A stretch of DNA of 64,000 bases from Bacillota bacterium (GTDB lineage Bacteria; Bacillota; Negativicutes; Sporomusales; CTSoil-080), in contig JAGGAC010000010.1 of the NCBI GenBank assembly GCA_017889635.1, positions 18,105 to 82,104 of the forward strand. The letters run 5' to 3'. Positions 2,296 to 45,112 of this stretch are shown piece after piece. Made by a program: the position numbers and the translations under genes. Every line of letters begins with the position of its first letter. Position 1 is the first letter of the stretch. The notes below the pieces were generated by a model that worked only from the letters and a program-made list of their open reading frames with translations, was not told where the DNA came from and made no database searches.

Positions 2296-3309
2296 TTATT
2301 TTAGTTGCGGCATGAACTCAATAAGTCGCTCCACCGCCTGCATTAAATTAAAATAATTGCTTGGATTTAAAGACTGCGGTCCGTCGGACAGAGCTTCGGC
2401 AGGATTAGGATGAACCTCTACCATCAGTCCATCAGCTCCGGCTGCCAATGCCGCCAGAGACATTGATTTAACCAGCTTCCATCTGCCAGTGCCATGGCTT
2501 GGATCAACAATAATCGGCAAATGGCTTAGCTCCTTTATCGCCCCAACCGCGCTCAAATCCAAAGTATTGCGGGTATATTCCTCATAAGTGCGAATTCCGC
2601 GTTCACACATAATAACATCATAATTTCCCTCATTAAGAATATACTCGGCAGCATGTAGCCACTCACTAATAGTCGCAGCAATACCACGCTTCAAGAGCAC
2701 TGGCTTTCCAGCCCGTCCCACCGCCTTTAGGAGCTGGAAATTTTGCATATTGCGAGCTCCAATCTGAAGTATATCAGCATATTCGGCAACCGCATCCACC
2801 GAAGTTACTTCTGTCACCTCAGTCACGATCTTAAGACCAGTTGCCTCGCGAGCCTCGGCCAGATACTCCAACCCCTTAAGCTCAAGCCCCTGAAAGGAGT
2901 AAGGCGAGGTTCTTGGTTTATAGGCCCCGCCGCGAAGCATTTGAGCGCCACCCTCCTTAACAAGCATCGCCGCTTCCATTAACTGTTCTCGGCTTTCTAC
3001 TGCACACGGCCCAGCCATAACCACAACATTGCCGCCACCAATCTTAACGCCGTCGACATCTACCACTGTAGAATCAGGCCGGAATTTGCGACTGGCCAAT
3101 TTATAACTTTCAGTAATCGGAATTACCCTCTCCACTCCGTCCAGAGCCTCAACAGGCATAGTAGCTATCATCCGTTTATCGCCAATCAAACCAATAATAA
3201 CCGGTCCTTGTTCACTTGAGACAAACGTTTTTAGTCCAGCGGCGTGAATGCGATCCACCACCTGCTTAACCTGAGAATCTGTGGCGTTTACATTCATTAC
3301 GATAACCAT
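2296..3309 (-). CDS. aroF: 3-deoxy-7-phosphoheptulonate (DAHP) synthase, type I-beta with N-terminal regulatory domain
   Basis: The 337-aa ORF has an N-terminal ferredoxin-like/ACT extension followed by a KDO8PS/DAHPS TIM-barrel core (…GPCAVES…IVDPSHG…). It follows pheA with an 11-nt gap. Confidence 0.8.
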
Positions 3310-3320: not shown

Positions 3321-4172
3321 CTATTCAACAGTATTAATTGGGTAAGACCCTAAATTTTTAAACCACAGGCTCTCAGCCTTAACCGCATTCAGTGCGTGAG
3401 CAACTTGCTCATCTTCCCAGGAACCTTCGAGATCAAAGAAAAAGACATACAAACCAAAACCACCACGGGAAGGACGCGATTCAATCTTTGTCAAATTGAC
3501 ACCACGTTTAGCAAATTCCCCCAGAATGGAGTACAAAGCACCTGCCTTTTCTCCGTTTATCTGGCAAACTATCGAGGTTTTACTCTTAACTCCGGCTGCA
3601 CTAACAGGTTCTTTCGACAACACCAAAAACCGCGTGGCGTTATTAGAATTATCCTGGATATCTTGATCCAAAACATCCAGACCATATATTTCCGCTGATC
3701 GCAAACTGCCAATTGCCGCATAGTTTTTCGCTCCGCTGGCAACCTTGTAAGCCGCAGCTGCAGTACTCTCTACTTCCACACGGTCGGTACCAGGATAATG
3801 TTTATCAAGATAATGACGACACTGGGCTAATGCCTGAGCATGAGAACAAATTACGTTTATATGCTTAGTACCTGGTTTTACAATTAAGTTATGCCGAATC
3901 GGTTTAACCATTTCCTTAATAACAAACAAATTCGCTTCATGAGCCAACGTATCCAGGGTTACATTAACTGATCCTTCAAGGGAATTCTCCACCGGTACAA
4001 TGCCTTCTGCTACTTCGCCTGAATCTACAGCCATAATAACTGAGCTAATGCTGGGATAAGGCGTAAAGCATCCTTCAACTCCACGATAAAAGCTAAGCGC
4101 AATTTCTTCGCTGAAAGTACCTCTCGGCCCTAGATAACCGACCTTTTTTTGAGCAGTTTTACACTCTGTCAT
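3321..4172 (-). CDS. pheA: prephenate dehydratase
   Basis: The 283-aa ORF has a PDT domain plus a C-terminal ACT domain (…[20 protein letters not shown]…). It is preceded by a T-box leader. Confidence 0.85.
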
Positions 4173-4194: not shown

Positions 4195-4480
4195 AAAAAA
4201 ATAAAACCCTCATCCCCTAAAGGACGAGAGCTGTTCTCGCGGTACCACCTTTGTTACCTGCCCTAACAGTAGCAGGTCACTATTATGAAGTACGGGCTTC
4301 GTGCCGATACTCCCCTCCTTTTAACGGCAAAGGCAACCGTCATTACCTACCACCAACTTAAGGCTTCAGCATGCTACTCCAAAGAGAACTTCGGCATATC
4401 CCTTGTACCAGGCTCTCACCATCCCCGGCTCTCTGCACCTAAAGATTATGCTTACTTTTCTTTATCATCGTATTTTGAAC
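4195..4480 (-). promoter_or_regulatory. T-box riboswitch leader controlling the pheA-aroF operon
   Basis: The plus strand carries CGCGGTACCACC, the reverse complement of the conserved T-box GGTGGTACCGCG. On the minus strand it is followed by a terminator hairpin (AAAGGACGAGAGCTGTTCTC…GGGATGAGGGTTTTATTTTTTT). A Stem-I-like AGAGAG element lies upstream. The candidate specifier is UUC (Phe) or UAC (Tyr). Confidence 0.7.
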
Positions 4481-4542: not shown

Positions 4543-5184
4543 TTATTGGTTATTAGTATCCGGTATGGCAATAACAGGCCAATTGACCGGATCAAGCCAA
4601 GCAATTAATTTAACAAGATCCTCTTCCGCCATAGCAATACATCCTCTAGTAGGCACACCGGAAGCTCGCCAAAGGTGGATAAAAATAGCGCTGCCCTTGC
4701 CACTAACAACTGGTGCGGTATTATATTCCACTACAACGCCATAGCGATATAACCCGTCAGCTCTAAGCATCGACTCATAAGATGCTGCTTTTGGCCGCCC
4801 GTGTACCCAATGATTATACTCCGGCGAAGCTGGATCATCAACCCAAAAGTCATCTTCTGATGTTTGACGATACGGCATATCAATTGCCACAATCGGCCTA
4901 CTGCCAAACACCATTCCCAGCGGATATACCCCCGTCGGTGTACAGCCGTCCCCCTCTTTTTTTCTTTCAGGCGACACCAAACCATTCCTTCCGATAGTAG
5001 CTGGTATCGGCCCATAGACAGTTCGCCAACTTTCCTGTTTGAATTCCCATAAAGAAACCTCTGCCAAATAACTTCCCGCCTCAGCCTTTACCAGCACTGC
5101 CTGAGTTATCTTTAAATCTACCGCCCTAACCATCTCTGGAAAAGTATTGTTCATGTCATCATCTCCAAGTGCATTTTCAAACAA
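4543..5184 (-). CDS. L,D-transpeptidase (YkuD-like) family protein
   Basis: The 213-aa ORF has the catalytic-type motif FIHLWRASGVPTRGCIAM (H…GC). Confidence 0.6.
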   Translation of the reverse strand: MFENALGDDDMNNTFPEMVRAVDLKITQAVLVKAEAGSYLAEVSLWEFKQESWRTVYGPIPATIGRNGLVSPERKKEGDGCTPTGVYPLGMVFGSRPIVAIDMPYRQTSEDDFWVDDPASPEYNHWVHGRPKAASYESMLRADGLYRYGVVVEYNTAPVVSGKGSAIFIHLWRASGVPTRGCIAMAEEDLVKLIAWLDPVNWPVIAIPDTNNQ

Positions 5185-6330
5185 TCACACATCAAGACGT
5201 TGCCGCACGGCCCCCGGCCCATCCTGGGCTATCGCAACCTTGGCCTCCCCGAAAGTTTTCATATCGTTTAACATGCCCAGACTGGCGTCAATCATCGATA
5301 TCCCCAAAGCTGCTCCCGTTCCTTCGCCCAACTGCAAATTAAGGTGTAGATAAGCTGGTATTCCAATAAGCTCCAGCGCCACGGAATGAGCTGGCTCACA
5401 GGAAAGATGGGACCCAACAAGATAATCCTTTACCTCCGGGGCCAATTTAACAGCTATAAGTGCCGCTGCTGCTGTAACTACACCGTCAATTACCACCACC
5501 GCCCGTCCGGCAGCGGCCGCTAAAATCACACCAACCAATCCGGCTATTTCCAACCCGCCTAATTTCGCCAACACCGCTAATGGATCACCAATATCAGGCT
5601 GATTTACCGCCAGTGCCTGTTCGATAACTTGGACCTTGTGTTTAAAACTGGCACTGGACATGTCATTATCTTTTCCAGCGAGCTTAACTATCGGCAAAGC
5701 CGCATAACAAGCGACAACCGCTGCAGCGGACGTCGTATTTGCAGTACCAAATTCGCCTAAACCAATTATCTGTATTCCCTTTGCCAGTTCATCACGGGCC
5801 ACACAAATGCCTCTTTCAATAGCCCTGAGAGTCTCTTCGCGAGTCATCGCCGGCCCCTTGATAATGTTGGCTGAACCATAGCGGACTTTTTCCCGCCGTA
5901 ATGTCGGTAAATCTGGCAAATCGGAAGCTATGCCGACATCCACCAGTACCAACTGAACATCAATATAATTAGCAAAACTATTAATCACGGCTTGACCATG
6001 ACAGCAATTAACAACCCGCCGCCAAGTAACTTCTGACGAAAAAGCTCCGACACCTTCCTCCGCTACCCCATGATCGGCGGCCATAAGAATAATGCTTCGC
6101 TTAATATTTCTCGGCTTGTCCTTCCTAGTGACACCAGCCACTTTTCGGGCCAAATATTCTAAACCATTCAAACTACCTAACGGTTTAGTTAAATTGTCAA
6201 GCCGCAACTGACACAAATCCATCGCCGCTTCGTCCAGTGGTTCGATTGCTGCTAACAAATCTACTAGCATCCATCCACCTCCATACTGATTTACCATGCT
6301 ACTTTTTATAGCACTTTTGACTCTGAGCAC
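5185..6330 (-). CDS. cobT: CobT-family nicotinate-nucleotide:base phosphoribosyltransferase paralog (ArsB-like)
   Basis: The 381-aa ORF belongs to the CobT family, but its core motif deviates to GEFGTANTT. It overlaps the upstream paralog by 25 nt and has a C-terminal QLGEGTGAAL. Confidence 0.75.
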   Translation of the reverse strand: MLRVKSAIKSSMVNQYGGGWMLVDLLAAIEPLDEAAMDLCQLRLDNLTKPLGSLNGLEYLARKVAGVTRKDKPRNIKRSIILMAADHGVAEEGVGAFSSEVTWRRVVNCCHGQAVINSFANYIDVQLVLVDVGIASDLPDLPTLRREKVRYGSANIIKGPAMTREETLRAIERGICVARDELAKGIQIIGLGEFGTANTTSAAAVVACYAALPIVKLAGKDNDMSSASFKHKVQVIEQALAVNQPDIGDPLAVLAKLGGLEIAGLVGVILAAAAGRAVVVIDGVVTAAAALIAVKLAPEVKDYLVGSHLSCEPAHSVALELIGIPAYLHLNLQLGEGTGAALGISMIDASLGMLNDMKTFGEAKVAIAQDGPGAVRQRLDV

Positions 6331-7403
6331 TTCACCATATCATCGTTCATTTTGATTGAAATATCTAATAAATGCATAGCGAGCGAAGCACCAGCCCCTT
6401 CACCAAGTCGCAACCCCATATCAATATACGCCTCAAGTCCAAGAACACGGAGCATTTTTGCATGTGCTGGCTCCGCGGAGAGATGCGATGCCAACATAAA
6501 GCCCTTACAAAGTGGACTTAAAGAATTAGCAATAAGCCCCGCCGCAGTAGCGTTGAAGCCATCAATGACCACAATACAGCGTTTAGCTGCCGCAGCTAAA
6601 ATAACGCCAGCCAAAGCGCCGAGCTCAAATCCGCCAACCTTGGCGAGAATATCAATACCATCTTCCGGGTCAGGGTTATTTATCGCTAATGCCTGGCGAA
6701 CAGCAGCAATCTTTACCCGCATACGCCTATCAGATATTCCGGTACCCCGACCAGTAGCTTCTTTTGGAGTTAATCCCTCAAAGGCTGCTGTAATTGCAGC
6801 GCTGGACGTTGTATTTCCGATCCCCATTTCTCCTAGGCTAAAACAGCGATACCCTCGTTCCACTAATTCATCAACAACTGTAATTCCTGTTTCTATAGCA
6901 CTAATGGCCTCCGTGCGAGTCATCGCTGGTCCTTCGGTAAAATTCTTCGTCCCCCAAGCAATCTTATGATGCAACAAACCTGGTACATCAGACATATCGC
7001 CAGCAATTCCCATATCAATCACAACCATGTCGGCTTTCGAAAACTTAGCCATAGCATTGGCTCCGGCTCCTTTAGACACGAGATAATTGCGAGTCATCTG
7101 CATCGTTGTTTCAACAGGATAAGCGCTAATGCCAAGTTTAGCCACACCATGATCGGCGCAAGCCAATACCATGCATTTTCGCGGAATACTTGGTCGTTCA
7201 TCACCAATAATACCGGCATACTGTACAACCATGTCTTCCAGCCGTCCTAAGCTCCCCTGGAGCTTCGACAGATTGTCAAACCTCTTTTCCACCACTTGCA
7301 TAACCGCCGCATCAAGTGGTGCTATTTCCGACAAGGTTTCTGCCAACAACGCCCTAATCCCTCCTGCACAAAATGAAAAGGCCTTTTTGATGAGCACCAC
7401 CAA
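6306..7403 (-). CDS. cobT: CobT-family nicotinate-nucleotide:base phosphoribosyltransferase paralog (ArsA-like)
   Basis: The 365-aa ORF has the canonical GEMGIGNTT and LGEGAGAS CobT motifs. The true start may be at an internal Met. Confidence 0.8.
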   Translation of the reverse strand: MVVLIKKAFSFCAGGIRALLAETLSEIAPLDAAVMQVVEKRFDNLSKLQGSLGRLEDMVVQYAGIIGDERPSIPRKCMVLACADHGVAKLGISAYPVETTMQMTRNYLVSKGAGANAMAKFSKADMVVIDMGIAGDMSDVPGLLHHKIAWGTKNFTEGPAMTRTEAISAIETGITVVDELVERGYRCFSLGEMGIGNTTSSAAITAAFEGLTPKEATGRGTGISDRRMRVKIAAVRQALAINNPDPEDGIDILAKVGGFELGALAGVILAAAAKRCIVVIDGFNATAAGLIANSLSPLCKGFMLASHLSAEPAHAKMLRVLGLEAYIDMGLRLGEGAGASLAMHLLDISIKMNDDMVKCSESKVL

Positions 7404-7559
7404 AAAAGCCCTAGTCTTCCAGGCATTACTCGCCTTATAATCATTTTACCTCATTATACCAGTCGACTATTTGGATCGTCAACCCATACGCACACCTCAG
7501 CAAACCACTGCGTAATATATTATGACTACAGTTCTAAAAATTTTAAAAGGGGGATAGCA

Positions 7560-7679
7560 ATGAATATTCGAAATTTTGGGTGCGGATGGGGTTTTGGTAG
7601 TGGCTTTATTATATTTATTATTATCATCATCATACTTCTATTGTTTTTTACATTTGAAGAAGAATCCGGCACAATATGA
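7560..7679 (+). CDS. YjcZ-like tiny transmembrane (sporulation-associated) protein, 39 aa
   Basis: It is not in the ORF track because it is under 60 aa. An ATG at 7560 is preceded by AAAGGGGGATAGCA (RBS, 7-nt spacer). The product is MNIRNFGCGWGFGSGFIIFIIIIIILLLFFTFEEESGTI. The Gly/Cys-rich N-terminus followed by a single hydrophobic helix resembles the YjcZ/tiny_TM_bacill family. Confidence 0.4.
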   Translation: MNIRNFGCGWGFGSGFIIFIIIIIILLLFFTFEEESGTI

Positions 7680-7873
7680 CAAATCCAATATAATAATTCA
7701 AATGCCAACTTTATTAGCCGGGTTTGTCCCGGTTCTTTTGTTTTACCGATACATAAAAGACCTACTGATCAGCAACCAAAAAAAGAAACGGCAACTCAAA
7801 GGCTACCGATTCTTTCAAAGTTTAAGTTATAACATTCCAGACATATTACATTTCACCATAAAAACCATCACAC

Positions 7874-8071
7874 CTATACCATTTCATGATGTGGCATGCC
7901 GCATCGAGGACAATAATCATGGTGATGATGTTTATACTCGTGACCGCAGTAAGAACATACCCTTACAACATGATAGCAACAATCTTCATAAATCTTATAT
8001 TTTATTTCACCAACGCATCTTCTCATGCACTTAGGCTTGCAGTAATGGCCGCAACCTTCATATCGATCCAT
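7874..8071 (-). CDS. Cys/His-rich small protein (candidate spore coat / metal-binding protein)
   Basis: The 65-aa product has about 11 Cys and 10 His, including HHHH. A perfect RBS AAAGGAGGT lies 9 nt before the ATG. A sigma-K-like promoter lies upstream. Confidence 0.55.
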   Translation of the reverse strand: MDRYEGCGHYCKPKCMRRCVGEIKYKIYEDCCYHVVRVCSYCGHEYKHHHHDYCPRCGMPHHEMV

Positions 8072-20957: not shown

Positions 20958-22904
20958 ATGAACACAAAGTACAATCATCTTTTATCACCATTAGAAGTTG
21001 GCGGCTATGTTTTAAAGAACAGAATGTCCTCATCCAATTCTTTGCCCCACTTTTTACAGGGCCCGGAACCCTATCCCGCAGATTCCGTAATTACACATTA
21101 TGCAAACAGGGCCAAGAGCGGTGCCGCAATCGTCACCTGCATGGGTATCAATAATGGCACCCGAGGAGTAAAGATTCCCATGGAATTAGATTTTGCCCAT
21201 TTTCCTGACTATGACCTCTATGACCCGACCTGCCAAAACTATTTAATACAGCTAGCCGATGCGATCCATTATTATGATTCCATCGCCTGTATGGGCTTCT
21301 TTGTCGGACCGGCCTCCGGCTATCCTCTGATGGACGGAGACTCCATCAAAATCATCGATTCTCATAAGGACGTTAGCGAGTACGATGAAGCAACCCTGGA
21401 GCTGATCGCCGATAGCTATGCAGAACAGGTCAGCATCCTTAAGCGCTTGGACTTTGATATGGCATCGATCCATTTTGCCTATGGCATACAACTGCCTGCC
21501 CAGTTCCTGTCTCCTTTGACAAACCATCGCGTTGATAAATTCGGTGGAAGCTTTGAAAATCGAGCCCGTTTCCCGCTAATGATCTTGGAACGCATCAGAA
21601 AAGCAGTTGGTCCCGACTTCATCATTGAGTGCCTTATGAGTGCTGAAGAGCTTACTGGTGGTTATACTTTGGACGATACAGTTGCTTTTCTGAAGATGGC
21701 TGAGAACTATATCAATATCGTTCAACTGCGCGCACCGGAAATTGACCCTGCCCATCCAACCGGATTTACTCTGGAAGAAATCCCCTTCGTCCATTATGCC
21801 GAGTATGTAAAGAAAAGCGGTACTAAAGTTCTTGTTTCTACAATTAGCGGCTATCATGATTTTGATACTTGCGAAGAAGTTCTGGCATCCGGAAAAGCTG
21901 ATATCATATCTATGGCCAGAAGTTGGATTAGCAACCCTAATTACGGTCAATTAGCTTATGAAGGAAACAAAGAAGATCTTGTTCCCTGCTTAAGATGTAA
22001 TAAATGCCACGGCCGCGGCAAGAATGATCCATTTGTCAGCGTATGTTCTGTCAATCCAATCATCGGATTAGAGCATATGATTGATAAGCTCGTTACTCCT
22101 CCTATCGCCTCTAAAAACATTGCCATTATTGGCGGCGGACCAGCTGGTATGAAGGCTGCTATGGAACTTTATGACAGAGGACACAAGGTCACTCTGTATG
22201 AAGCAACAGATGCGCTTGGCGGCGCGATCAAACATTCTGACTATGTCGATTTTAAATGGCCACTGAGGAAATTTAAAAATTATTTGATTAATCAGGTTAC
22301 AAAGCGCGACATTACTGTTCATTTAAATAGAAGAGTAACACCAGAGATGCTCAAAAATCAGAATTACGATGTCATCCTGGCTGCACTTGGAGCCCAACCC
22401 ACTAAACCGCCGCTTCCCGGAATTGACAATGAACATGTTGTTTTTGCAACAGATTCTTTCATCAACCCCGATAATTTGGGCAAGAATGTTGTAGTCATCG
22501 GCGGCGGAGAAGTCGGTGTAGAAGCTGGCATTAATCTGGCCCAAAAGGGCCACAACGTTACGGTTTTGGAAATGCGTGATACTTTAGCGGCAGATACCAC
22601 GCTCATCCATTATCGTTCTATGTTTGAAGCGGCCTGGGAAAAACTCGATAACTTCAGCTACATTCTGAATGCACGCTGTTCAGGTATCAAAGATACTGAA
22701 GTTACCTACATAGATGTAAATGGTGATGAAAAATCTATTTCAGCAGACAGCGTTGTTATATCTGCCGGAATGAAAGCTAAAAAGGCTGAAGCGTTGAAGT
22801 TTTACGGAATCGCTGACAGATTCTATATGATTGGCGACTGCAAAAAACCTGCTACCATTCAGCAAACAATGCGGAGTGCATTCTCAACCGCATCCACAAT
22901 CTAA
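20958..22904 (+). CDS. Old-Yellow-Enzyme family NADH:flavin oxidoreductase / 2-enoate reductase (FMN TIM barrel + 4Fe-4S + FAD/NAD domain)
   Basis: The 648-aa ORF has an OYE-like N-terminal half, a Cys cluster CLRCNKCHG…C, and a GGGPAG dinucleotide-binding motif in the C-terminal half. Confidence 0.8.
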   Translation: MNTKYNHLLSPLEVGGYVLKNRMSSSNSLPHFLQGPEPYPADSVITHYANRAKSGAAIVTCMGINNGTRGVKIPMELDFAHFPDYDLYDPTCQNYLIQLADAIHYYDSIACMGFFVGPASGYPLMDGDSIKIIDSHKDVSEYDEATLELIADSYAEQVSILKRLDFDMASIHFAYGIQLPAQFLSPLTNHRVDKFGGSFENRARFPLMILERIRKAVGPDFIIECLMSAEELTGGYTLDDTVAFLKMAENYINIVQLRAPEIDPAHPTGFTLEEIPFVHYAEYVKKSGTKVLVSTISGYHDFDTCEEVLASGKADIISMARSWISNPNYGQLAYEGNKEDLVPCLRCNKCHGRGKNDPFVSVCSVNPIIGLEHMIDKLVTPPIASKNIAIIGGGPAGMKAAMELYDRGHKVTLYEATDALGGAIKHSDYVDFKWPLRKFKNYLINQVTKRDITVHLNRRVTPEMLKNQNYDVILAALGAQPTKPPLPGIDNEHVVFATDSFINPDNLGKNVVVIGGGEVGVEAGINLAQKGHNVTVLEMRDTLAADTTLIHYRSMFEAAWEKLDNFSYILNARCSGIKDTEVTYIDVNGDEKSISADSVVISAGMKAKKAEALKFYGIADRFYMIGDCKKPATIQQTMRSAFSTASTI

Positions 22905-34211: not shown

Positions 34212-36176
34212 TTGTGTGCAATTAGAAATGATAGATATCCGCATGTATTCCAGCCACTCAAAATTCGGGGAACCACATTGAAAAATCGGCTCCAATATTC
34301 ACCAACCGTAGTGTTAAAATGCAGTCCCGAAGGCGATGTTACCCAGGATATGATGGACTATGTCAAATGGCAAGCCCGGACAGGAGCAGCCTATGTAACC
34401 ATCGGAAACAGCCCCGTAGTCCATTCAGACAGTTCCGCATGGGTATGCGAACTTAACGTGACTCAGGATCGTTGCATACATGGCATTAATCAATTGGTTA
34501 TTGCTGCCCGGGAAAACGGCGCGGAACTTTCAATCGAACTTTCCCACGCCGGACGTGGCTCGGCCACTTCTTCGGAAACTCCAGCGCTGGCTCCTTCCGA
34601 TGTCCCCCTTAACGGCGGGCCTCTTGGCCATATCAAACCCATGAATTACGAAGACATGGCATATATTAAGAAACAATTTGTTGACTGCGCGGTTCGCTGC
34701 GAGCACGCCGGCCTCCGTATGATCATGCTTCACTGTGCCCACAACAACCTTTTGGCCCAGTTCATTTCGCCCCTCAGCAACAAACGCACCGATGAATACG
34801 GCGGAAGCTTTGAAAACCGCATACGTTATCCGCTGGAAGTACTTGCCGCAGTAAGGGCGGCTGTACCATCCATGATCATCGAACTCCGCGTCAGTGCCCA
34901 GGAAGACATCGAAGGCGGCCTAGAATTCGACGAATCCCTTGAATTTATGAAGATAGCACAACAATATGTGGATATCATGCATGTCTCCAGAGGCAACATC
35001 TTTTTCAATTACGGTTCGACTTGCACCATTCCTACCTATTTCAAAGGCCGACAGCTAAATATACCTTTTGCCCAGGAAATCAAAAAACACCTCAGGATTC
35101 CTGTGGCAGTAGTCGGCAATATCACCTCCCTGACAGAGGCGGAAGACATCATCGGAAATGGGAAGGCTGATATCGTTGTAATGGCAAAATCTTTCATGGC
35201 CGATGGAGACCTGGTCCGTAAATCTCTCCTGGACCAGGCCGGAGATATCCGTCCCTGCACCCGTTGCGACTGGTGCGGCAATGCTAACGTATATGGGACA
35301 AGCATGCGTTGTGCCGTCAATCCCAGGCTGGGAATTAATATTAATATCGCCGACACGATCCCTTCTGATAAAGCCAAAAACGTCATGGTTATCGGAGGCG
35401 GCCCCGGTGGTATGATGGCTGCGCAGACCCTATGTGAGATGGGACACAATGTTACCCTTTACGAAAAATCCGATAAACTCGGCGGCCTTGTCAAAGATGC
35501 CATCGCAGCACCGTTCAAAGAATACTTAAGACTATACCATGAGTGGAATGTCCGTCAGACCGAAAAATGCGGCGCAAAAATCATTTATAATACCGAAGTC
35601 ACCCCAGAACTCGTTGAAAAAACTAACCCGGATGCCATTATTGTAGCTACCGGTTCAAAATATATAAAGCCGAATATCGAAGGCATTGACAATCCCAAGG
35701 TCAAAATGGTCAGCGATGTTGAAAACCATAAAGTAAACGTCGGTCAAAAGGTCGTTGTCTGCGGCGGCGGGATCGTCGGACTGGAATGTGCTATCATGCT
35801 GGGCATGGAAGGCAAAGAAGTCACCGTCATCGACATGATACCTGCCAAAGATTTTGGAAAAGGTATGCCGGTATTCAACCACATCGAAGTCATGTACCAG
35901 CTTGAAAAATATGGCGTAAAGCTGCAGGGAGACCTCAAAATCAAAAAATTCACCGTCGAAGGCGTGGTAGCTACCGACTCGGAGAACAAAGAACATATTG
36001 TTCACGGCGATACATATGTCATTGCCCTCGGAGTCGAACCCGACGACGCTCTGGCACACACGCTTCTCTCCATGTATGCCGATGGAGTATATATAATCGG
36101 TGATTGTGTATCCACAGGACGTCTGATTGCCGATGCCAACCAAGAAGCCTTCCATGCTGCACTGCGAATAAAATAA
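34212..36176 (+). CDS. Old-Yellow-Enzyme family NADH:flavin oxidoreductase / 2-enoate reductase (paralog of 20958-22904)
   Basis: The 654-aa ORF has the same three-module architecture as the paralog (CTRCDWCGN…C cluster; GGGPGG). It has an in-frame TTG start. Confidence 0.8.
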   Translation: MCAIRNDRYPHVFQPLKIRGTTLKNRLQYSPTVVLKCSPEGDVTQDMMDYVKWQARTGAAYVTIGNSPVVHSDSSAWVCELNVTQDRCIHGINQLVIAARENGAELSIELSHAGRGSATSSETPALAPSDVPLNGGPLGHIKPMNYEDMAYIKKQFVDCAVRCEHAGLRMIMLHCAHNNLLAQFISPLSNKRTDEYGGSFENRIRYPLEVLAAVRAAVPSMIIELRVSAQEDIEGGLEFDESLEFMKIAQQYVDIMHVSRGNIFFNYGSTCTIPTYFKGRQLNIPFAQEIKKHLRIPVAVVGNITSLTEAEDIIGNGKADIVVMAKSFMADGDLVRKSLLDQAGDIRPCTRCDWCGNANVYGTSMRCAVNPRLGININIADTIPSDKAKNVMVIGGGPGGMMAAQTLCEMGHNVTLYEKSDKLGGLVKDAIAAPFKEYLRLYHEWNVRQTEKCGAKIIYNTEVTPELVEKTNPDAIIVATGSKYIKPNIEGIDNPKVKMVSDVENHKVNVGQKVVVCGGGIVGLECAIMLGMEGKEVTVIDMIPAKDFGKGMPVFNHIEVMYQLEKYGVKLQGDLKIKKFTVEGVVATDSENKEHIVHGDTYVIALGVEPDDALAHTLLSMYADGVYIIGDCVSTGRLIADANQEAFHAALRIK

Positions 36177-37045: not shown

Positions 37046-37100
37046 TTTACTACCCGTATATCAAAACATTCATTTTTCATATCAACTATACACATAAAAA

Positions 37101-37137
37101 TGACACGGCATAAATCCGTGTCATTTTTATGTTTTTT
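37101..37137. terminator. terminator hairpin (copy 1; part of the left direct repeat)
   Basis: TGACACGGCATAAATCCGTGTCA followed by TTTTTATGTTTTTTT. Confidence 0.55.
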
Positions 37138-37213
37138 TGGCAGGGGCAGTAGGACTTGAACCCACAACCAACGGTTTTGGAGACCGCTACTCTACCAATT
37201 GAGCTATACCCCT
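37102..37213. repeat. left copy of ~110-bp direct repeat (tRNA-Trp + terminator)
   Basis: It is near-identical to 44932-45043 and differs at a few positions in the T-arm half. Confidence 0.7.
37138..37213 (-). tRNA. trnW: tRNA-Trp (CCA), copy 1
   Basis: The minus strand reads AGGGGTATAGCTCAATTGGTAGAGTAGCGGTCTCCAAAACCGTTGGTTGTGGGTTCAAGTCCTACTGCCCCTGCCA. The anticodon loop CTCCAAA gives CCA. Confidence 0.9.
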
Positions 37214-37468
37214 ATGACCGCGAATTTACAAGCCTTGTAGACCTATGTATATATTGTAGTACAATTCAGGGTAACAAGTCAAACGTTAATATCTTATGTT
37301 GCATTTTCAGGGTAAGACTTAAGCCCTCACCTATATAAAAAAGCAGTCAAATTATATACCTTTCCTAATCCAAAAACATCATATTTATACCAGCGTTCAA
37401 CAAGACAACTTCAGGTGTTTAAGAAGCTACTACTTAGCTTGCAATTTACCGACACAACGATACTCCTT

Positions 37469-37891
37469 TTAACTATATTTAGGCAATTCCTTGCCACAAT
37501 TTATACAAACTATTGCTTCTTTCTTTATACCATCTGCACAAAATGGACATTTTATTATGCCACTAATAAACTGCTTTTTAGTGGGCTTATATCGAATAAT
37601 GCGATATCCAATATAAAATATCACCCAAAAAGCAAAATAACACGCATCGAAATTATTCCATCCATTTTTATTAATGTCCGTGATAGGGCGGCTCAATATC
37701 ATTATCATAAAAACCCGTTCTCCCCAGTCTTCATATCCAAATAGCCTATCAACGACAGCCAGTATTCCAAAAACAGAGAATATTACTAAATCCGGTAATA
37801 AGCTAAACCCTTGTGGATCTAGATACCAACCAACAGCTTCAAAAATACCGAGTATTAGTAAACCTTTGAACCAACGTGAATTTACTCTCAC
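37469..37891 (-). CDS. membrane protein with C-terminal zinc ribbon
   Basis: The 140-aa ORF has hydrophobic helices and a C-terminal CPFC…CINCG. Confidence 0.45.
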   Translation of the reverse strand: MRVNSRWFKGLLILGIFEAVGWYLDPQGFSLLPDLVIFSVFGILAVVDRLFGYEDWGERVFMIMILSRPITDINKNGWNNFDACYFAFWVIFYIGYRIIRYKPTKKQFISGIIKCPFCADGIKKEAIVCINCGKELPKYS

Positions 37892-38017
37892 CTTTCTTAA
37901 TCCCTTCTTAGATAATTCCTTTTATTACGCCACCAAGTGCTTAACGACAGGTACTTCAATCTTCTTTTAAATCATGTAGCCTAACTACTCTATTATTAAT
38001 AATCACTCAGCAGTAAT

Positions 38018-38647
38018 TTAACTTCCGCTCAAAGTATGCAGTTCGTTAATAAAATTATTTTCTTCAGCATTACGCCGACTTTTCTTAGCTTCATCAGTTT
38101 CTACCACTTCGACTTTGATACCACGCTTATTAAACTCCTTGATCAATACAGGTGCCTTAGCTTTCAAAACCTGGTCATTGACAATTCCAAACAAGTCAAG
38201 ATTCTCCTCCCCATTTTCTTCTTTTATAACAACTTTGCAACTATACGAATAACGCCCGCGATATGCATTAATAGTAATAATCGCAGGACTCTGTATACTA
38301 TCCAAAGATACTACTTTAGTAACAAATAAATTTCTGGCACTACGGTAACTAATTTCTTTATCCGTAATATGTCCGTAACCAAAGCTCCAAAAAAACACCT
38401 GGCACAAAGTAAATAATATAAGATATACGATGCCATCAATATTACGTCGATACTTACCCACAACTACTATTAGAAGAATTAATTGAGTTAACAAATAAAA
38501 TGTTTTAGTAAATGTAGGAAACACCAAAATATACTTATAGCTATTATTTAGGAATTCTAATAAACCCGGCATTGCAATAACCAGAAATATCCATATAACA
38601 AACAGAAACATCCTTAGAATTTTTTCCATCACTGTATTAACTCCCAA
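38018..38647 (-). CDS. membrane protein with C-terminal soluble domain
   Basis: The 209-aa ORF has 3-4 TM helices followed by a ~110-aa charged domain. Confidence 0.45.
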   Translation of the reverse strand: MGVNTVMEKILRMFLFVIWIFLVIAMPGLLEFLNNSYKYILVFPTFTKTFYLLTQLILLIVVVGKYRRNIDGIVYLILFTLCQVFFWSFGYGHITDKEISYRSARNLFVTKVVSLDSIQSPAIITINAYRGRYSYSCKVVIKEENGEENLDLFGIVNDQVLKAKAPVLIKEFNKRGIKVEVVETDEAKKSRRNAEENNFINELHTLSGS

Positions 38648-38700
38648 GTTTATGAAGTTCTTCTCCTCTTCCTATCTTTCATTTTGCCATTTAATGCAGT

Positions 38701-39129
38701 TTATAACTGCTTCTCAACAAACTTATGTGCTATTTTACTAGGAAGGATTCGCATGTAACCTTTAGTCCCTTTATTAAAGTGTTTATAATTAATTTTACCT
38801 TTCAAATTTCTTATTGGAACTTTCTCCATAGCAAAAAAGCAAAATCTCACAATGCCTACAATAATTGCACATAATATGAGGCCAAAAAGCAATAAATTAT
38901 CTATACCGTAATAATATTTAATAATGCCGTTAACAACAATATATAGAGAGAACAGAAGAAAGCATAATACTAATACTTTTGCCATTTCTTTTTTGCTTTC
39001 TTTTCTATTATCAAACATACATAATAAAATCATTCCTACTATCGAAAACCAATACTCATAATAATAGGCTTTTATAAAAGTTAATAGTTCCGATGATATC
39101 AATCTATCTCTCCTTCCAAGCAAATACAA
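38701..39129 (-). CDS. small membrane protein
   Basis: The 142-aa ORF has about 4 hydrophobic helices. Confidence 0.4.
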   Translation of the reverse strand: MYLLGRRDRLISSELLTFIKAYYYEYWFSIVGMILLCMFDNRKESKKEMAKVLVLCFLLFSLYIVVNGIIKYYYGIDNLLLFGLILCAIIVGIVRFCFFAMEKVPIRNLKGKINYKHFNKGTKGYMRILPSKIAHKFVEKQL

Positions 39130-39173
39130 CTATCATATAATAAGCAATATTCATAGTTAAAAGTATCGTATTA

Positions 39174-39896
39174 TCAACTTGAGTTTTTTCCCTGTCCGTT
39201 CGCTAGAACCGCCTTTATTTCTCGTTGCAGCCAAATAAACTCAAATAAATAGTAGAAACCAAAGCTTTCACCGCCAGCTATACACGCTGCAAATTCCCAG
39301 CCAAGTCCCAAAAAACCTGGTACAATCCCAGATATCATCCAAAAAGCCAGACATAGCCAACGCAGATAATTGAATCTTTTTTTATCTCTTACTTTATCGC
39401 AAACTACTGCAATAACTGCTGTTATTACCGCAGAAACTATTATCACGCCTAGCGCTTTCAACATTAGATTAGGAACTAGAGCTGTTTTAGAATTTTGACC
39501 ACCTAAAATAAAACTCGCCAATAAACTAACTGGAATTAATACTAGTGCCAGCATAAACTTCCAAGCGAATCCTTTTGGCAGTTCTTCTTTTACTCCAACT
39601 TGTGATACCACTTGCTTTTGTGACGTTTTCAACGTTTTACTCAAGAGATAATAAAGCCCCATTATAGTGATTGCTCCACCAACGGAGAAAATCCATCCCA
39701 AACTGCTACCTACAATTACTATAAAAATTCCGCATCCAATGCAGCACCACTTGAAAAGTTTTATACTCACCGCTTTCCGGCGATAGGCAAAATTGTGTAA
39801 GCACCCAACGATAAAAAACGCAAAGAAAATAGTTACTTTAAAAATTAATAAGCTATGCTGTCGTAATTCAACCGGCATTGCTAGATATTGTTCCAC
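39174..39896 (-). CDS. multi-pass membrane protein
   Basis: The 240-aa ORF has about 6-7 hydrophobic helices. Confidence 0.45.
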   Translation of the reverse strand: MEQYLAMPVELRQHSLLIFKVTIFFAFFIVGCLHNFAYRRKAVSIKLFKWCCIGCGIFIVIVGSSLGWIFSVGGAITIMGLYYLLSKTLKTSQKQVVSQVGVKEELPKGFAWKFMLALVLIPVSLLASFILGGQNSKTALVPNLMLKALGVIIVSAVITAVIAVVCDKVRDKKRFNYLRWLCLAFWMISGIVPGFLGLGWEFAACIAGGESFGFYYLFEFIWLQREIKAVLANGQGKNSS

Positions 39897-39918
39897 CCTA
39901 ACGCCCCATTCTCAATAA

Positions 39919-40293
39919 TTAATCAAACTTTTTACCACAGTTATAACAAAACTTATGCGACCGTTCGCATAGTTCAATTAAACACCAAGAACATCGCTTA
40001 TTCTTTATGTACATAATTAAACTTACAATTAAATACATTACGAAAACTAAACTAGCAAAAATGGCCTTTACAAACAATGTACTCTCAGGACCAAAAACCA
40101 TAACAATTACAAAAAGTCCAATGAAAAACAATTCTTTAGTCCATTTATTTAATGGTCCACATTTCACTGTTTTCATACCAGGATTGTTATTCGCGCCACA
40201 CAGAGGGCAATATTTATATATAGTTCTAACTCGTCCGACGTACCCGGTAAGGTCATAATGGCAAACGCGGCAGACTTTATTTTGTTCTTCCAT
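39919..40293 (-). CDS. double zinc-ribbon membrane protein
   Basis: The 124-aa ORF has CRVC…CPLCG at the N-terminus, two TM helices, and CSWC…CYNCG at the C-terminus. Confidence 0.45.
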   Translation of the reverse strand: MEEQNKVCRVCHYDLTGYVGRVRTIYKYCPLCGANNNPGMKTVKCGPLNKWTKELFFIGLFVIVMVFGPESTLFVKAIFASLVFVMYLIVSLIMYIKNKRCSWCLIELCERSHKFCYNCGKKFD

Positions 40294-40606
40294 GTTTTCT
40301 CCTTATTAAGTTCCGAAACTTCCTATCCATAAGTACAGCTACAATGTTGGTTCTTCCGCAGATGCAATTTTCACCTCATTACTGGCAATCAGCTGGCTAC
40401 CGTCAAAAGCCATTACAGGTATAGTAATTAAGAGCGGTAACATAAAAAAGACAAAACGGCATTTACCCAGAAATTCTTGCCAAGCCTCTAAGCTATATTT
40501 CCATACAGCCAAGCCTTCACTAATAAGTTAAGCAAAATCATTAAGCCAAGCAACACGCCTTCGTAATGCTAGTAAACAAAGCAGAAACTTATTAATCTAT
40601 TTCTGA

Positions 40607-41068
40607 TTAATTCAAGACGAAACGAAAGCTTAATGTATAAGTGCGATCATTTCCATCAAAAGCGCAATTAAGATTATATTTCCCTTTGGAAAAGTTTATT
40701 GACTTTTTGGTTTTAGTTTCTTCTAGTTTAGTAATTTGCCATCCGTTTTTTGAAGTTTCGTTCAAATAGAAATCGCGAATATCTTCCCATGGTTTGTCAG
40801 TTAAATAATTGAAATCAATATGACCTTTTAAAGATTTGTCTATGTCGTAAGTTTTTGAATTAACCAGAGTTGCATCTGGCAAAGGAGAAAGATTATTATA
40901 TTCTTTTTGTATGGTTTCTTGAGCAATTATTTTTTCTTCAGCTAATTTTTCATGGCGAGATTGTAATTTGGAAGAAATTATAATCTGCGCTACAGTTATA
41001 ATAACTAAGATTACTAGTAATGGGAGTATGAACTTTTTTGACATCAATAAAACTTGTTTTAGCTTCAT
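40607..41068 (-). CDS. membrane-anchored/secreted protein
   Basis: The 153-aa ORF has an N-terminal signal/anchor helix. It lies 2 nt downstream of the 41070 gene. Confidence 0.45.
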   Translation of the reverse strand: MKLKQVLLMSKKFILPLLVILVIITVAQIIISSKLQSRHEKLAEEKIIAQETIQKEYNNLSPLPDATLVNSKTYDIDKSLKGHIDFNYLTDKPWEDIRDFYLNETSKNGWQITKLEETKTKKSINFSKGKYNLNCAFDGNDRTYTLSFRFVLN

Positions 41069-41069
41069 A

Positions 41070-41777: not shown

Positions 41778-42043
41778 AACAAATCAGCTCCTTTTAAAAC
41801 TTACACGCACTTCCCATAACTTTTAAAAAAATTTGCAAACTTACGTGCTTACTATTATAATTTATTTGTATTTCATACTTTTCTACAATATATATAAATA
41901 TCCTTTTTACATATTGTTTTTTGTATTTCAGTATATAAATAATTCCAATTGAAGATTACACCAAGGCTTTATAGACAATAAAAGAGGCACCATAAGATGC
42001 CTCATACTTTTTCAGCCAATATAAATATTAAAACATCCATCTT

Positions 42044-42235
42044 TCATTTTTTACGCACAAATGCCGCCTTGCAGTTAGGGCATTGTACTTCGTATTCTTT
42101 ACCAAAAGGAATATCTGCGTCATTGAAATAAAATTCAACTTCACATACACTACATTTGATTATTTCGCAATATGTTCCTTTTAGATGCATATTACACATA
42201 ATCTCTTCGTAAGCTAATCTCCATAAATAGCCCAT
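42044..42235 (-). CDS. small zinc-ribbon protein
   Basis: The 63-aa ORF has CSVC…CPNC. Confidence 0.35.
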   Translation of the reverse strand: MGYLWRLAYEEIMCNMHLKGTYCEIIKCSVCEVEFYFNDADIPFGKEYEVQCPNCKAAFVRKK

Positions 42236-42300
42236 TTTTACATTTGAGAAACCATTAAGTAAACTGGTATCGCGCGGAACATCTTCATAAGCACGTTTTG

Positions 42301-42867: not shown

Positions 42868-42952
42868 TATAAAATGAAAAGCAAGGAAATAACCACTGTT
42901 CAATTTCGTCGGAATTACCCTTAGTAATGAGATGTTTTGAAAATAATAAAGG

Positions 42953-45043: not shown

Positions 45044-45048
45044 ATAAA

Positions 45049-45106: not shown

Positions 45107-45112
45107 ATACGC

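What the first reader, a model, noticed from the sequence alone, without database searches (positions are those of the whole stretch)
5185..7403. Tandem overlapping CobT paralogs, one with a degenerate GEFGTANTT motif: ArsAB-type phenolic lower-ligand activation?
Two full-length CobT-family genes sit head-to-tail with a 25-nt overlap. The upstream copy keeps the canonical GEMGIGNTT motif and the downstream copy does not. This matches the heterodimeric ArsA/ArsB arrangement described in Sporomusa ovata, which activates phenol and p-cresol for phenolyl-cobamide synthesis. It would place the organism among producers of phenolyl cobamides. No cobalamin riboswitch is obvious upstream.
Basis: partly seen in the sequence, partly recalled or inferred. 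Interest (0 to 1): 0.55.

Follow-up and report, generated by a model that had tools for sequence, protein, structure and literature searches.

The report
ArsAB phenolic lower-ligand activation genes
Two neighbouring CobT-like genes in an uncultured spore-forming Negativicutes bacterium are orthologues of ArsA and ArsB, the two-subunit enzyme that activates phenol or p-cresol for attachment to vitamin-B12-type cofactors, so this is a new but predictable member of a known gene pair.

Summary
Two full-length CobT-family (PF02277) genes lie head-to-tail on the minus strand. They are arsA (6306-7349, 347 aa) and arsB (5185-6270, 361 aa). The reported 25-nt overlap comes from using the longest ORFs. 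With the supported start codons there is a 35-nt spacer and a GGAGGTG ribosome-binding site.

The upstream protein's best solved-structure match is S. ovata ArsA (440 bits; best CobT 231). The downstream protein's best match is ArsB (384 bits; best CobT 227). In a bootstrapped tree with 45 diverse CobTs, the ArsA clade has 100/100 support and the ArsB clade 88/100. All 35 loci that carry an ArsB orthologue at 50% identity or more, with enough upstream sequence to judge, also carry arsA upstream on the same strand.

ArsA keeps every catalytic motif. ArsB keeps the catalytic Glu and GEFGTANTT, which is barely degenerate because Salmonella CobT has GELGMANTT. Its second phosphate loop has decayed (GRGTGIS to GKDNDMS).

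Across 35 genomes, ArsB's own active-site loops vary while its N- and C-terminal segments are nearly invariant. ArsA shows the reverse. This is the pattern expected for one composite active site.

No cobalamin riboswitch is present. The leader does keep the terminator hairpin that follows the aptamer in S. ovata.

Verdict: the ArsAB reading is supported. This is a new member of a known kind. Phenolyl-cobamide production is untested.

The parts
7453..7482 (-). Sigma-70-type promoter-like site, TTGACG-N18-TATAAT with TG before the -10 hexamer. It is the likely arsAB promoter.
   Evidence: 11 of 12 matches, the best in the region; sequence. A near-identical promoter is at the same place in L023. 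It is a consensus match only and has not been tested.
7368..7412 (-). Leader hairpin (15-16 bp, -19.7 kcal/mol) followed by a U-rich tract. It looks like an intrinsic terminator and matches the expression platform of the cobalamin riboswitch that precedes arsA in relatives. No aptamer is present here.
   Evidence: fold z = -4.3; local alignment to the post-aptamer hairpin of S. ovata L032, L003 and L012 gives z of about 10, with 0 of 1000 shuffles reaching it; no aptamer; the aptamer is present in 8 of 14 relatives.
7359..7365 (-). arsA ribosome-binding site AGGAGGG, 9 nt before the TTG start.
   Evidence: sequence. The start agrees with the 347-aa gene call.
6306..7349 (-). arsA, 347 aa with a TTG start; the predicted catalytic subunit. 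Motifs by residue: SAYP 75-78, GEMGIGNTT 173-181 (E174), GRGTGIS 200-206, LGEGAGA 315-321 (E317).
   Evidence: ArsA 4hdk_A 440 bits, E = 4e-131. (PF02277, TIGR03160). (ArsA clade 100/100). (148 of 157 clade-conserved columns kept; 9 of 10 discriminating columns in the ArsA state). (motif positions).
6271..6305 (-). 35-nt arsA-arsB spacer containing the arsB ribosome-binding site GGAGGTG (6276-6282).
5185..6270 (-). arsB, 361 aa with an ATG start; the predicted partner subunit.
   Evidence: ArsB 4hdk_B 384.5 bits, E = 4e-114, aligned from residue 1. (100% identical to NCBI MBP2653693.1, annotated as CobT in a MAG). (ArsB clade 88/100). (124 of 131 clade-conserved columns kept; 10 of 10 discriminating columns in the ArsB state).
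5731..5757 (-). ArsB phosphate loop 1, GEFGTANTT (residues 172-180). The Glu (E173) and NTT are retained.
5656..5676 (-). ArsB phosphate loop 2, decayed to GKDNDMS (residues 199-205). ArsA and the intact ArsB orthologues have GRGTGIS here.
   Evidence: conservation in this segment is 0.05 in ArsB against 0.86 in ArsA. The loop's role is inferred from MjCobT Gly177 binding the NaMN phosphate (PMC9561151).
5209..5268 (-). ArsB C-terminal tail NDMKTFGEAKVAIAQDGPGA (residues 335-354), almost invariant across ArsB orthologues.
   Evidence: most positions 0.94-1.00 conserved; the matching ArsA segment is 0.54.
4543..5154 (-). YkuD-domain (L,D-transpeptidase-like) gene, 203 aa, with no obvious signal peptide by eye. 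It starts 31 nt after arsB with no terminator between, so it is probably co-transcribed. No known link to cobamides.
   Evidence: It is adjacent in L022 and L023, and lies 1.4-2.7 kb further downstream in L004, L011 and L020.
4217..4477 (-). T-box leader that begins the next operon (pheA 3321-4172, DAHP synthase 2296-3309). It marks the downstream limit of the arsAB unit.

Best explanation
The two genes are the arsA and arsB orthologues of an uncultured endospore-forming Negativicutes bacterium.

Proposed mechanism:
- They most likely encode a pseudosymmetric ArsA-ArsB heterodimer with one working composite active site.
- The large domain of ArsA binds nicotinate mononucleotide (NaMN) and carries the catalytic Glu174 and Glu317.
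- The N- and C-terminal small domain of ArsB closes the base pocket of ArsA.
- The enzyme transfers phosphoribose from NaMN to phenol or p-cresol, and probably to benzimidazoles if they are offered. The product is the alpha-O-riboside phosphate that cobamide synthase joins to the corrin ring.

What is shown here:
- Orthology of both genes.
- Conserved gene order.
- An intact catalytic set in ArsA.
- A decayed second phosphate loop in ArsB.
- A reciprocal conservation pattern in the two subunits.

What is inferred:
- Heterodimer formation.
- The phenolic substrate.
- That ArsB is catalytically silent here.
- That the cell makes a complete cobamide.

Expression appears to come from a plain sigma-70-type promoter. 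The leader has kept only the terminator hairpin of the ancestral cobalamin riboswitch.
For: 1. Reciprocal best matches to the solved S. ovata enzyme: ArsA 440 bits against 231 or less for CobT; ArsB 384.5 bits against 244 for ArsA and 227 for CobT.
2. NJ tree with 45 diverse CobT cluster representatives: ArsA clade 100/100 and ArsB clade 88/100. The window groups with L022 and L023 in both trees (98 and 62), so the pair was inherited together.
3. All 35 loci with an ArsB orthologue at 50% identity or more and enough upstream sequence to judge have arsA (60-70% identity to the window's ArsA) upstream on the same strand. In 34 of them arsA is immediately adjacent. S. ovata DSM 2662 is among them.
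4. The window proteins keep 148 of 157 (ArsA) and 124 of 131 (ArsB) clade-conserved columns, and 9 of 10 and 10 of 10 discriminating columns.
5. ArsA motifs are invariant across genomes. ArsB's own active-site segments (residues 71-90, 171-180, 191-220) are variable (0.05-0.70), while its residues 11-30 and 321-357 are more conserved than in ArsA (0.77-1.0 against 0.53-0.64). In SeCobT the base pocket is built from both chains (PMC9561151).
6. ArsA is more conserved than ArsB in 99.4% of 630 genome pairs.
7. Single-ORF ArsA-ArsB fusions of 678 aa occur in L058 and L068. Proteins of 590-700 aa with several matched stretches are common among the cluster representatives. Both argue for a physical complex.
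8. Phenolic activation is reported for ArsAB of S. ovata and V. parvula (PMC6461909; PMC4657239; PMC8123684). Veillonella proteins belong to the Dialister-type ArsB group, which branches at the base of the ArsB clade, so the window pair lies between the two tested enzymes.
Against: - No enzyme assay and no cobamide analysis were done.
- No other cobamide biosynthesis or cobamide-dependent gene lies in the 64-kb window. S. ovata arsAB is equally isolated, so this is weak evidence either way.
- The window ArsB keeps the catalytic Glu, the NTT loop and a full-length second loop. Its inactivity is therefore less certain than for S. ovata ArsB, which has an 11-residue deletion.
- The primary ArsAB papers (PMC3182833, PMC3548962) could not be read. 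Statements that only ArsA is catalytic, and about the small-domain architecture, rest on my recollection of their abstracts.
- The leader carries a terminator-like hairpin with no obvious antiterminator, so expression may be low.
Confidence: 0.8

Rival explanations
1. The pair is orthologous to ArsAB, but in this lineage it is not a dedicated phenol or p-cresol enzyme. ArsB may still be active, giving two active sites. Alternatively the complex may mainly activate benzimidazoles or purines taken from the environment, so the cell's cobamide is not phenolic.
For: - The window ArsB keeps E173, E316 and NTT.
- Many ArsB orthologues (L003-L007, L011, L012, L020, L038) keep every CobT motif.
- S. 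ovata ArsAB is reported to activate DMB and other benzimidazoles as well, and cobamide structure depends on which bases are available (PMC8123684).
- No source of phenol or p-cresol was identified in the window.
Against: - Two acidic residues replace glycines in the window ArsB second phosphate loop.
- The ArsB active-site segments are the least conserved parts of the protein across genomes.
- Both tested ArsAB enzymes prefer or accept phenolics.
Confidence: 0.12
2. The operon is a relic. Losing the riboswitch aptamer left a constitutive terminator in the leader, the genes are barely expressed, and arsB, perhaps with arsA, is drifting towards pseudogenisation.
For: - A terminator-like hairpin sits between the promoter and arsA, and no aptamer is present.
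- arsA has a TTG start.
- ArsB is only 57-59% identical to that of L022 and L023, whereas the flanking DAHP synthase is 91% and PheA 85% identical.
Against: - Both ORFs are intact and have strong ribosome-binding sites.
- The window ArsB keeps 124 of 131 clade-conserved columns, and all seven changes are conservative. ArsA keeps 148 of 157.
- The promoter-plus-hairpin architecture is shared with L023, so it has been maintained since the two lineages split.
Confidence: 0.05
3. The genes are two ordinary, independently acting CobT paralogues (homodimers) with different benzimidazole or purine specificities, like the duplicate CobTs reported in some other bacteria.
For: - NCBIfam calls both proteins cobT_DBIPRT above its cut-off.
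- Public annotation names both as CobT.
- Duplicate CobTs exist in other taxa (PMC4657239).
Against: - Both proteins sit in the ArsA and ArsB clades, away from 45 CobT representatives.
- The pair is conserved and co-inherited.
- The two subunits show reciprocal conservation.
- Natural ArsA-ArsB fusions exist.
Confidence: 0.03

Closest known systems
Sporomusa ovata ArsAB (NaMN:phenol/p-cresol phosphoribosyltransferase; PDB 4HDK, 4HDM, 4HDN, 4HDR, 4HDS)
   Same: - Same two CobT-derived subunits, in the same gene order and on the same strand.
- ArsA is about 60% and ArsB about 55% identical to the window proteins.
- ArsA motifs are identical in type (SAYP, GEMGIGNTT, GRGTGISD, LGEGxGAS).
- ArsB shares the conserved N-terminal segment and the NDMKTFGEA..AQDGPGA tail.
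- In both genomes the operon stands apart from other cobamide genes.
   Different: - S. ovata arsA and arsB overlap by 8 nt; the window has a 35-nt spacer.
- S. ovata ArsB has GEMGLGGLA and an 11-residue deletion of the second phosphate loop. The window ArsB has GEFGTANTT and a full-length but acidified loop, GKDNDMS.
- S. ovata has a cobalamin riboswitch aptamer directly upstream (L032 8667-8851, 81 bits). The window has only the terminator hairpin.
Veillonella parvula ArsAB and the Veillonellaceae/Dialister-type pairs
   Same: Tandem arsA-arsB of the same two clades. The enzyme is reported to prefer phenolic bases (PMC4657239).
   Different: The ArsB partners of this group are far more degenerate: 33-41% identity to the window ArsB, the NTT loop lost, large deletions, and the catalytic Glu replaced in some. 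V. parvula also has a separate cobT (PMC8123684). Whether the window genome has one is unknown.
Salmonella enterica CobT (NaMN:DMB phosphoribosyltransferase, homodimer)
   Same: Same fold family (PF02277) and the same catalytic residues in ArsA (E174 and E317 by alignment). The active site is built from two chains.
   Different: - Only 34-38% identity to the window proteins.
- It is a single gene whose product forms a homodimer with two equivalent sites.
- It uses nitrogenous bases. It is reported not to use phenolics; this rests on my recollection of the Newmister 2012 abstract, which I could not read here.
Tandem-cobT rule for predicting phenolyl-cobamide producers (Shelton et al. 2019, ISME J)
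   Same: The window pair meets the published criterion of two adjacent cobT annotations of 300-800 aa, found almost only in Negativicutes (PMC6461909).
   Different: That survey found 27 species. This MAG lineage is not a named species and its proteins are publicly annotated simply as CobT.

Membership tests
ArsAB (heterodimeric NaMN:phenolic-base phosphoribosyltransferase) | Both subunits belong to the CobT/DBI_PRT family. | tested here: met
   PF02277: 394.7 bits (on the 365-aa longest-ORF translation of arsA) and 373.1 bits (arsB), full-length. TIGR03160 and NF000996 score above their cut-offs.
ArsAB (heterodimeric NaMN:phenolic-base phosphoribosyltransferase) | Genes adjacent and co-oriented, arsA upstream of arsB. 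| tested here: met
   arsA is 6306-7349 and arsB is 5185-6270, both on the minus strand with a 35-nt spacer. S. ovata and the other related loci with an ArsB orthologue at 50% identity or more show the same order, with spacing from -38 to +36 nt; one locus is an outlier at 773 nt.
ArsAB (heterodimeric NaMN:phenolic-base phosphoribosyltransferase) | The upstream protein is orthologous to S. ovata ArsA rather than to CobT or ArsB. | tested here: met
   440 bits to 4hdk_A against 231 (CobT) and 212 (ArsB). ArsA clade 100/100 bootstraps. 9 of 10 discriminating columns are in the ArsA state.
ArsAB (heterodimeric NaMN:phenolic-base phosphoribosyltransferase) | The downstream protein is orthologous to S. 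ovata ArsB. | tested here: met
   384.5 bits to 4hdk_B against 244 (ArsA) and 227 (CobT). ArsB clade 88/100. 10 of 10 discriminating columns are in the ArsB state.
ArsAB (heterodimeric NaMN:phenolic-base phosphoribosyltransferase) | ArsA keeps a complete catalytic and NaMN-binding set (equivalents of SeCobT E174 and E317, and both phosphate loops). | tested here: met
   GEMGIGNTT (E174), GRGTGIS and LGEGAGA (E317) are present. The roles of E174 and E317 are taken from PMC9561151.
ArsAB (heterodimeric NaMN:phenolic-base phosphoribosyltransferase) | ArsB is the non-catalytic partner, with its own NaMN site degraded. | tested here: inconclusive
   The second phosphate loop is GKDNDMS and the base loop is GAFS instead of SAYP. 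However, E173, E316 and NTT are retained. Loss of activity is plausible but cannot be decided from sequence.
ArsAB (heterodimeric NaMN:phenolic-base phosphoribosyltransferase) | The two proteins form a heterodimer. | not testable with these tools
   Indirect support only: reciprocal conservation of the ArsB termini and the ArsA active-site loops, and natural ArsA-ArsB fusions.
ArsAB (heterodimeric NaMN:phenolic-base phosphoribosyltransferase) | Transfers phosphoribose to phenol or p-cresol, forming an O-glycosidic bond. | not testable with these tools
   Inferred from orthology and from the pair's position between the S. ovata and Veillonella enzymes.
ArsAB (heterodimeric NaMN:phenolic-base phosphoribosyltransferase) | Occurs in Negativicutes. 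This is a typical feature, not a strictly defining one. | tested here: met
   Closest loci are Sporomusaceae, Selenomonadales, Pelosinus and unnamed Bacillota MAGs. Spore germination genes lie next to the locus. The source protein is labelled Firmicutes MAG.
Ordinary homodimeric CobT (DMB- or purine-activating) | Groups with single-copy CobTs and is not part of a conserved arsA-arsB pair. | tested here: not met
   Neither protein groups with the 45 CobT representatives or the three solved CobTs. The pair is conserved in all close relatives.
Cobalamin-riboswitch-controlled arsAB operon (as in S. ovata) | An RF00174 aptamer lies between the promoter and arsA. | tested here: not met
   No RF00174 hit in the window at the gathering score or at E<=10. 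It is present upstream of arsA in 8 of 14 relatives, including S. ovata. Only the terminator hairpin remains.

The most novel reading that the evidence does not exclude
ArsB may not have become a pseudoenzyme once. It may have started as a fully CobT-like, possibly active, partner, with its own NaMN site then decaying independently several times.

Evidence so far:
- By the ArsA tree and by flank synteny, the window lineage is closest to genomes whose ArsB keeps every motif (L004, L007, L011, L020).
- The window, L022 and L023 each carry a different pattern of decay.
- Sporomusa, Pelosinus and the Acidaminococcaceae/Veillonellaceae lineages lost the site by other routes.

On this reading the window ArsB is a transitional form: Glu and loop 1 intact, loop 2 acidified. 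Lineages with an intact ArsB may have two active sites with different base preferences.

In parallel, this lineage removed the aptamer of its arsAB cobalamin riboswitch and kept the terminator as a fixed attenuator.
Probability: 0.45. Interest if true: 0.45.

Novelty: new member of a known kind. Interest (0 to 1): 0.27.

Why it matters
Phenolyl cobamides cannot use a base-on form. They support only some cobamide enzymes and are poorly sensed by many riboswitches, so knowing who can make them matters for models of corrinoid exchange in anaerobic communities.

This locus adds an uncultured soil or sediment-type Negativicutes lineage to the set of predicted producers. It also shows that public annotation as CobT hides the pair.

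The comparative by-products are useful to specialists. The reciprocal conservation pattern identifies, from sequence alone, which parts of each subunit build the single working site. The series of ArsB decay states, with this window as an intermediate, offers natural variants for testing when the second site was lost. The aptamer-less leader gives a natural test of what a riboswitch terminator does on its own.

None of this overturns current understanding.

Tried and rejected
- Primary papers. I tried to read Chan & Escalante-Semerena 2011 (PMC3182833), Newmister 2012 (PMC3548962), Claas 2010 (PMC2798273), Mok & Taga 2013 (PMC3624591) and Chan 2014 (PMC3900240). None is held. Statements about ArsA being the only catalytic subunit, and about the CobT small-domain architecture, are therefore from memory and are marked as such.
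- Other cobamide genes. Pfam scans of about 39 ORFs found none: no cbi, cob, btu or cobamide-dependent enzymes. The "producer" claim could not be tested.
- Link to neighbouring genes. I considered a functional link between arsAB and the adjacent pheA/DAHP-synthase genes (aromatic precursors). I rejected it as unsupported, because those genes have their own promoter and T-box leader, and the synteny is confined to one sub-lineage.
- Horizontal replacement. I considered it as the reason ArsA and ArsB are much less similar to L022/L023 than the flanking genes are. I rejected it because the window groups with L022 and L023 in both the ArsA tree (98/100) and the ArsB tree (62/100).
- Overlap. The 25-nt overlap was rejected as a longest-ORF artefact.
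- Source genome. The window's own genome was not in the species-representative collection; the best ArsB hit was 62% identical. The organism could not be named beyond a Firmicutes/Bacillota MAG.
- Sister relationship. ArsA and ArsB as sister clades (a single duplication) received only 11/100 bootstraps, so the origin of the pair is unresolved.
- Structure prediction was not run. Sequence E-values to the solved ArsAB chains already settle the fold, and the tool returns no coordinates for ligand-site inspection.
Full report
**What is in the sequence.**
The interval 5185-7403 holds two long minus-strand ORFs (6306-7403 and 5185-6330), and both are full-length members of the CobT/DBI_PRT family PF02277.

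It does not survive a check of the start codons. The downstream gene has an ATG at 6270, 5 nt after GGAGGTG. From that ATG the protein aligns from residue 1 of crystallised S. ovata ArsB: MLVDLLAAIEPLD against MLEELIAAIKPLD. The same homologous ATG, preceded by GGAGG, starts arsB in every related locus with an ArsB orthologue at 50% identity or more.

The upstream gene most likely starts at TTG 7349, 9 nt after AGGAGGG. Independent gene calls on the public contig give 347 and 361 aa with a 35-nt gap. So arsA is 6306-7349 and arsB is 5185-6270. The source is a metagenome-assembled Firmicutes/Bacillota genome, and both proteins are publicly annotated as plain CobT.

**Orthology.**
- Against all solved structures, the upstream protein scores 440-442 bits to S. 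ovata ArsA (4hdk_A), 231 bits or less to any CobT, and 212 to ArsB.
- The downstream protein scores 384.5 bits to ArsB (4hdk_B), 244 to ArsA and 227 or less to CobT.
- A first NJ tree of 240 sequences put the two window proteins in separate clades with S. ovata ArsA and ArsB.
- A second tree used 20 genome-matched ArsA/ArsB pairs, the solved proteins and 45 single-domain CobT cluster representatives from an exhaustive HMMER search. It gave ArsA monophyly in 100/100 bootstraps and ArsB monophyly in 88/100.
- In that tree the window groups with the MAGs L022 and L023 in both subunit trees (98 and 62). The pair was therefore inherited together, not assembled by gene replacement.
- The window proteins keep 148 of 157 and 124 of 131 of the columns that are at least 90% conserved in their clades. 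They also match 9 of 10 and 10 of 10 columns that discriminate ArsA from ArsB.
- A scan of species-representative genomes returned 35 loci with an ArsB orthologue at 50% identity or more and enough upstream sequence to judge. Every one has an ArsA orthologue upstream on the same strand, and in 34 it is immediately adjacent. S. ovata DSM 2662 (L032) is among them.

**The motifs.**
GEFGTANTT differs from Salmonella CobT's own GELGMANTT at only two positions (one search shows the L175M variant). Among the top 120 ArsB-clade proteins, most have GEMGI[GA]NTT.

The informative difference lies about 25 residues downstream. ArsA, and the ArsB orthologues whose motifs are intact, have GRGTGIS there. 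The window ArsB has GKDNDMS. In the archaeal CobT structure, the NaMN phosphate is held by backbone amides and a Thr of the first loop and by the amide of Gly177 in the second loop. Glu150 there corresponds to Glu174 of SeCobT (PMC9561151). By homology, which is an inference, both loops form the phosphate site. The window ArsB has put two aspartates into the second loop.

The window ArsB still has the equivalents of E174 and E317 (E173 and E316). Its inactivity is therefore plausible but not established.

**Comparative anatomy of the pair.**
Across genomes ArsA is invariant at SAYP, GEMGIGNTT, GRGTGISD and LGE[GA]xGAS. ArsB shows a graded series of states:
- fully CobT-like (L003-L007, L011, L012, L020, L038);
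- the window;
- L022 (GEIGTGNTM / RPDASCY);
- L023 (GDIAVAGTT / GRSAGIS, with the catalytic Glu replaced by Gln);
- Pelosinus (NTIS / KTADSS-type);
- Sporomusa (GLGGLA plus an 11-residue deletion);
- Acidaminococcaceae, Veillonellaceae and Dialister types, with large deletions.

ArsA is more conserved than ArsB in 99.4% of 630 genome pairs, with means of 69.3% and 60.2%.

A 10-residue sliding comparison over 35 genomes shows a reciprocal pattern:

| Segment | Conservation in ArsB | Conservation in ArsA |
|---|---|---|
| Active-site segments (71-90, 171-180, 191-220) | 0.05-0.70 | 0.73-0.98 |
| N-terminal segment (11-30) and C-terminal region (321-357, NDMKTFGEA.VA.AQDGPGA..Q) | 0.77-1.00 | 0.53-0.64 |

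In SeCobT the base pocket is built from both chains (PMC9561151). As I recall from Cheong et al. 1999, it is built by the N/C-terminal small domain of the neighbouring subunit. The pattern is what one expects if the only working site is made of the ArsA large domain plus the ArsB small domain. That agrees with my recollection of Newmister et al. 2012, that only ArsA is catalytic.

Natural single-ORF ArsA-ArsB fusions support a physical complex. They are 678 aa in L058 and L068, and proteins of 590-700 aa with several matched stretches are common among the cluster representatives.

**Regulation.**
This is a departure from the norm rather than a neutral fact. An RF00174 aptamer sits immediately upstream of arsA in 8 of 14 relatives scanned, including S. 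ovata (77-93 bits). It is absent in L007, L010, L020, L022, L024 and L038.

The window has these elements instead:
- a strong promoter-like site, TTGACG-N18-TGgTATAAT, at 7482-7453;
- then, about 35 nt downstream, a 15-16 bp hairpin with a U-tract at 7412-7368 (-19.7 kcal/mol, z = -4.3).

That hairpin is nearly identical to the one that follows the aptamer in S. ovata, L003 and L012. The window reads GGCTTTTTTGG...CAAAAAGGCCTTTT.ATTTT, with z of about 10 and 0 of 1000 shuffles matching. L023 shares the promoter-plus-hairpin layout. I read this as an aptamer-less remnant of the riboswitch expression platform. Whether it attenuates transcription is untested.

**Context.**
- A YkuD-domain gene (4543-5154) follows arsB after 31 nt with no terminator, so it is probably co-transcribed.
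- Next comes a T-box leader with pheA and a DAHP synthase.
- This order is shared with L022 and L023. With insertions, it is also shared with L004, L011 and L020.
- Nothing else in the 64-kb window is cobamide-related. S. ovata arsAB is equally isolated.
- Spore germination genes nearby, and the nearest relatives, place the organism among endospore-forming Negativicutes.

**Mechanism and confidence.**
The best explanation (about 0.8) is a heterodimeric ArsAB enzyme. It would transfer phosphoribose from NaMN to phenol or p-cresol at a single ArsA-centred site completed by ArsB.
- Shown here: orthology, gene order, the intact ArsA site, the decayed second loop of ArsB, and the reciprocal conservation pattern.
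- Inferred: dimerisation, the phenolic substrate, ArsB inactivity, and cobamide production by the cell.
- The substrate inference rests on reports for S. ovata and V. parvula ArsAB. It also rests on the window pair lying phylogenetically between the Sporomusa pairs and the Dialister-type pairs, a group to which Veillonella ArsB homologues belong.
- Rivals: same family but a different in vivo ligand or two active sites (0.12); a silent, decaying operon (0.05); two independent ordinary CobTs (0.03).

**Novelty.**
The tandem-cobT rule for arsAB has been published and has been applied to 11,000 genomes (PMC6461909). This locus is therefore a new member of a known kind, in a lineage not yet named. 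The side results appear not to be described in the papers I could search. These are the independent, graded decay of ArsB, the reciprocal conservation pattern, the fusions, and the riboswitch remnant. They are of moderate specialist interest.

Noticed in passing
window 7368-7482 (-); L023 1815-1915; L032 8852-8905: The arsA leader has a strong promoter-like site followed by a terminator hairpin. The hairpin is nearly identical to the one downstream of the cobalamin aptamer in S. ovata, L003 and L012, but no aptamer is present here. It looks like a riboswitch that lost its sensor and kept its terminator. L023 has the same layout.
   Followed up: partly
L058 10001-12037; L068 1467-3503; proteins P0241, P0242, P0111 and others: In some Veillonellaceae and Massilibacillus MAGs, ArsA and ArsB are fused into one ORF of about 650-680 aa. 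Many 590-700 aa multi-stretch CobT proteins appear among the cluster representatives.
   Followed up: partly
L003-L038, L053-L082 (arsB genes): The ArsB active-site loops decay in different ways in different lineages: intact, acidified, Glu replaced by Gln, 11-residue deletion, large deletions. ArsA stays invariant. By the ArsA tree and flank synteny, the decays appear independent.
   Followed up: partly
L078, L079, L082: ArsA/ArsB-like tandem pairs occur in MAGs labelled Oscillospiraceae, Lachnospiraceae and Acholeplasmataceae. Either the pair has spread outside Negativicutes or the contigs are mis-binned.
   Followed up: no
window 4543-5154 (-): A YkuD (L,D-transpeptidase catalytic domain) gene with no obvious signal peptide by eye lies 31 nt after arsB and is probably co-transcribed. 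The adjacency is conserved in L022 and L023. No known connection to cobamides.
   Followed up: partly
window 7874-8071 (-): A 65-aa Cys/His-rich ORF (MDRYEGCGHYCKPKCMRRC...HHHHDYCPRCGMPHHEMV) has a strong ribosome-binding site and its own terminator-like hairpin (7808-7789). It has no Pfam match and is called as a gene on the public contig.
   Followed up: no
window 7560-7679 (+): A 39-aa Gly/Phe-rich then hydrophobic ORF (MNIRNFGCGWGFGSGFIIFIIIIIILLLFF...) has a ribosome-binding site and a terminator at 7716-7734. By eye it resembles small sporulation-type peptides.
   Followed up: no
window 4217-4477 (-) and 61792-62020 (+): Two T-box leaders: one before pheA and DAHP synthase, one before tyrosyl-tRNA synthetase (62075-63292). 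Specifier codons were not read.
   Followed up: no
window 37100-45200: A low-GC stretch (0.34 against about 0.42 elsewhere) of mostly unannotated small ORFs is bracketed by tRNA genes (37141-37213; 44971-45189). It may be an integrated element.
   Followed up: no
window 20958-22904 (+) and 34212-36176 (+): Two paralogous Oxidored_FMN plus pyridine-nucleotide-disulphide oxidoreductase fusion enzymes (enoate or 2,4-dienoyl-CoA reductase type) lie within 13 kb of each other.
   Followed up: no
L022 8468-8822; L023 about 1500-1720: In the two closest relatives the RNase P RNA gene lies directly upstream of arsA. In the window that position is occupied by the two small ORFs instead.
   Followed up: no
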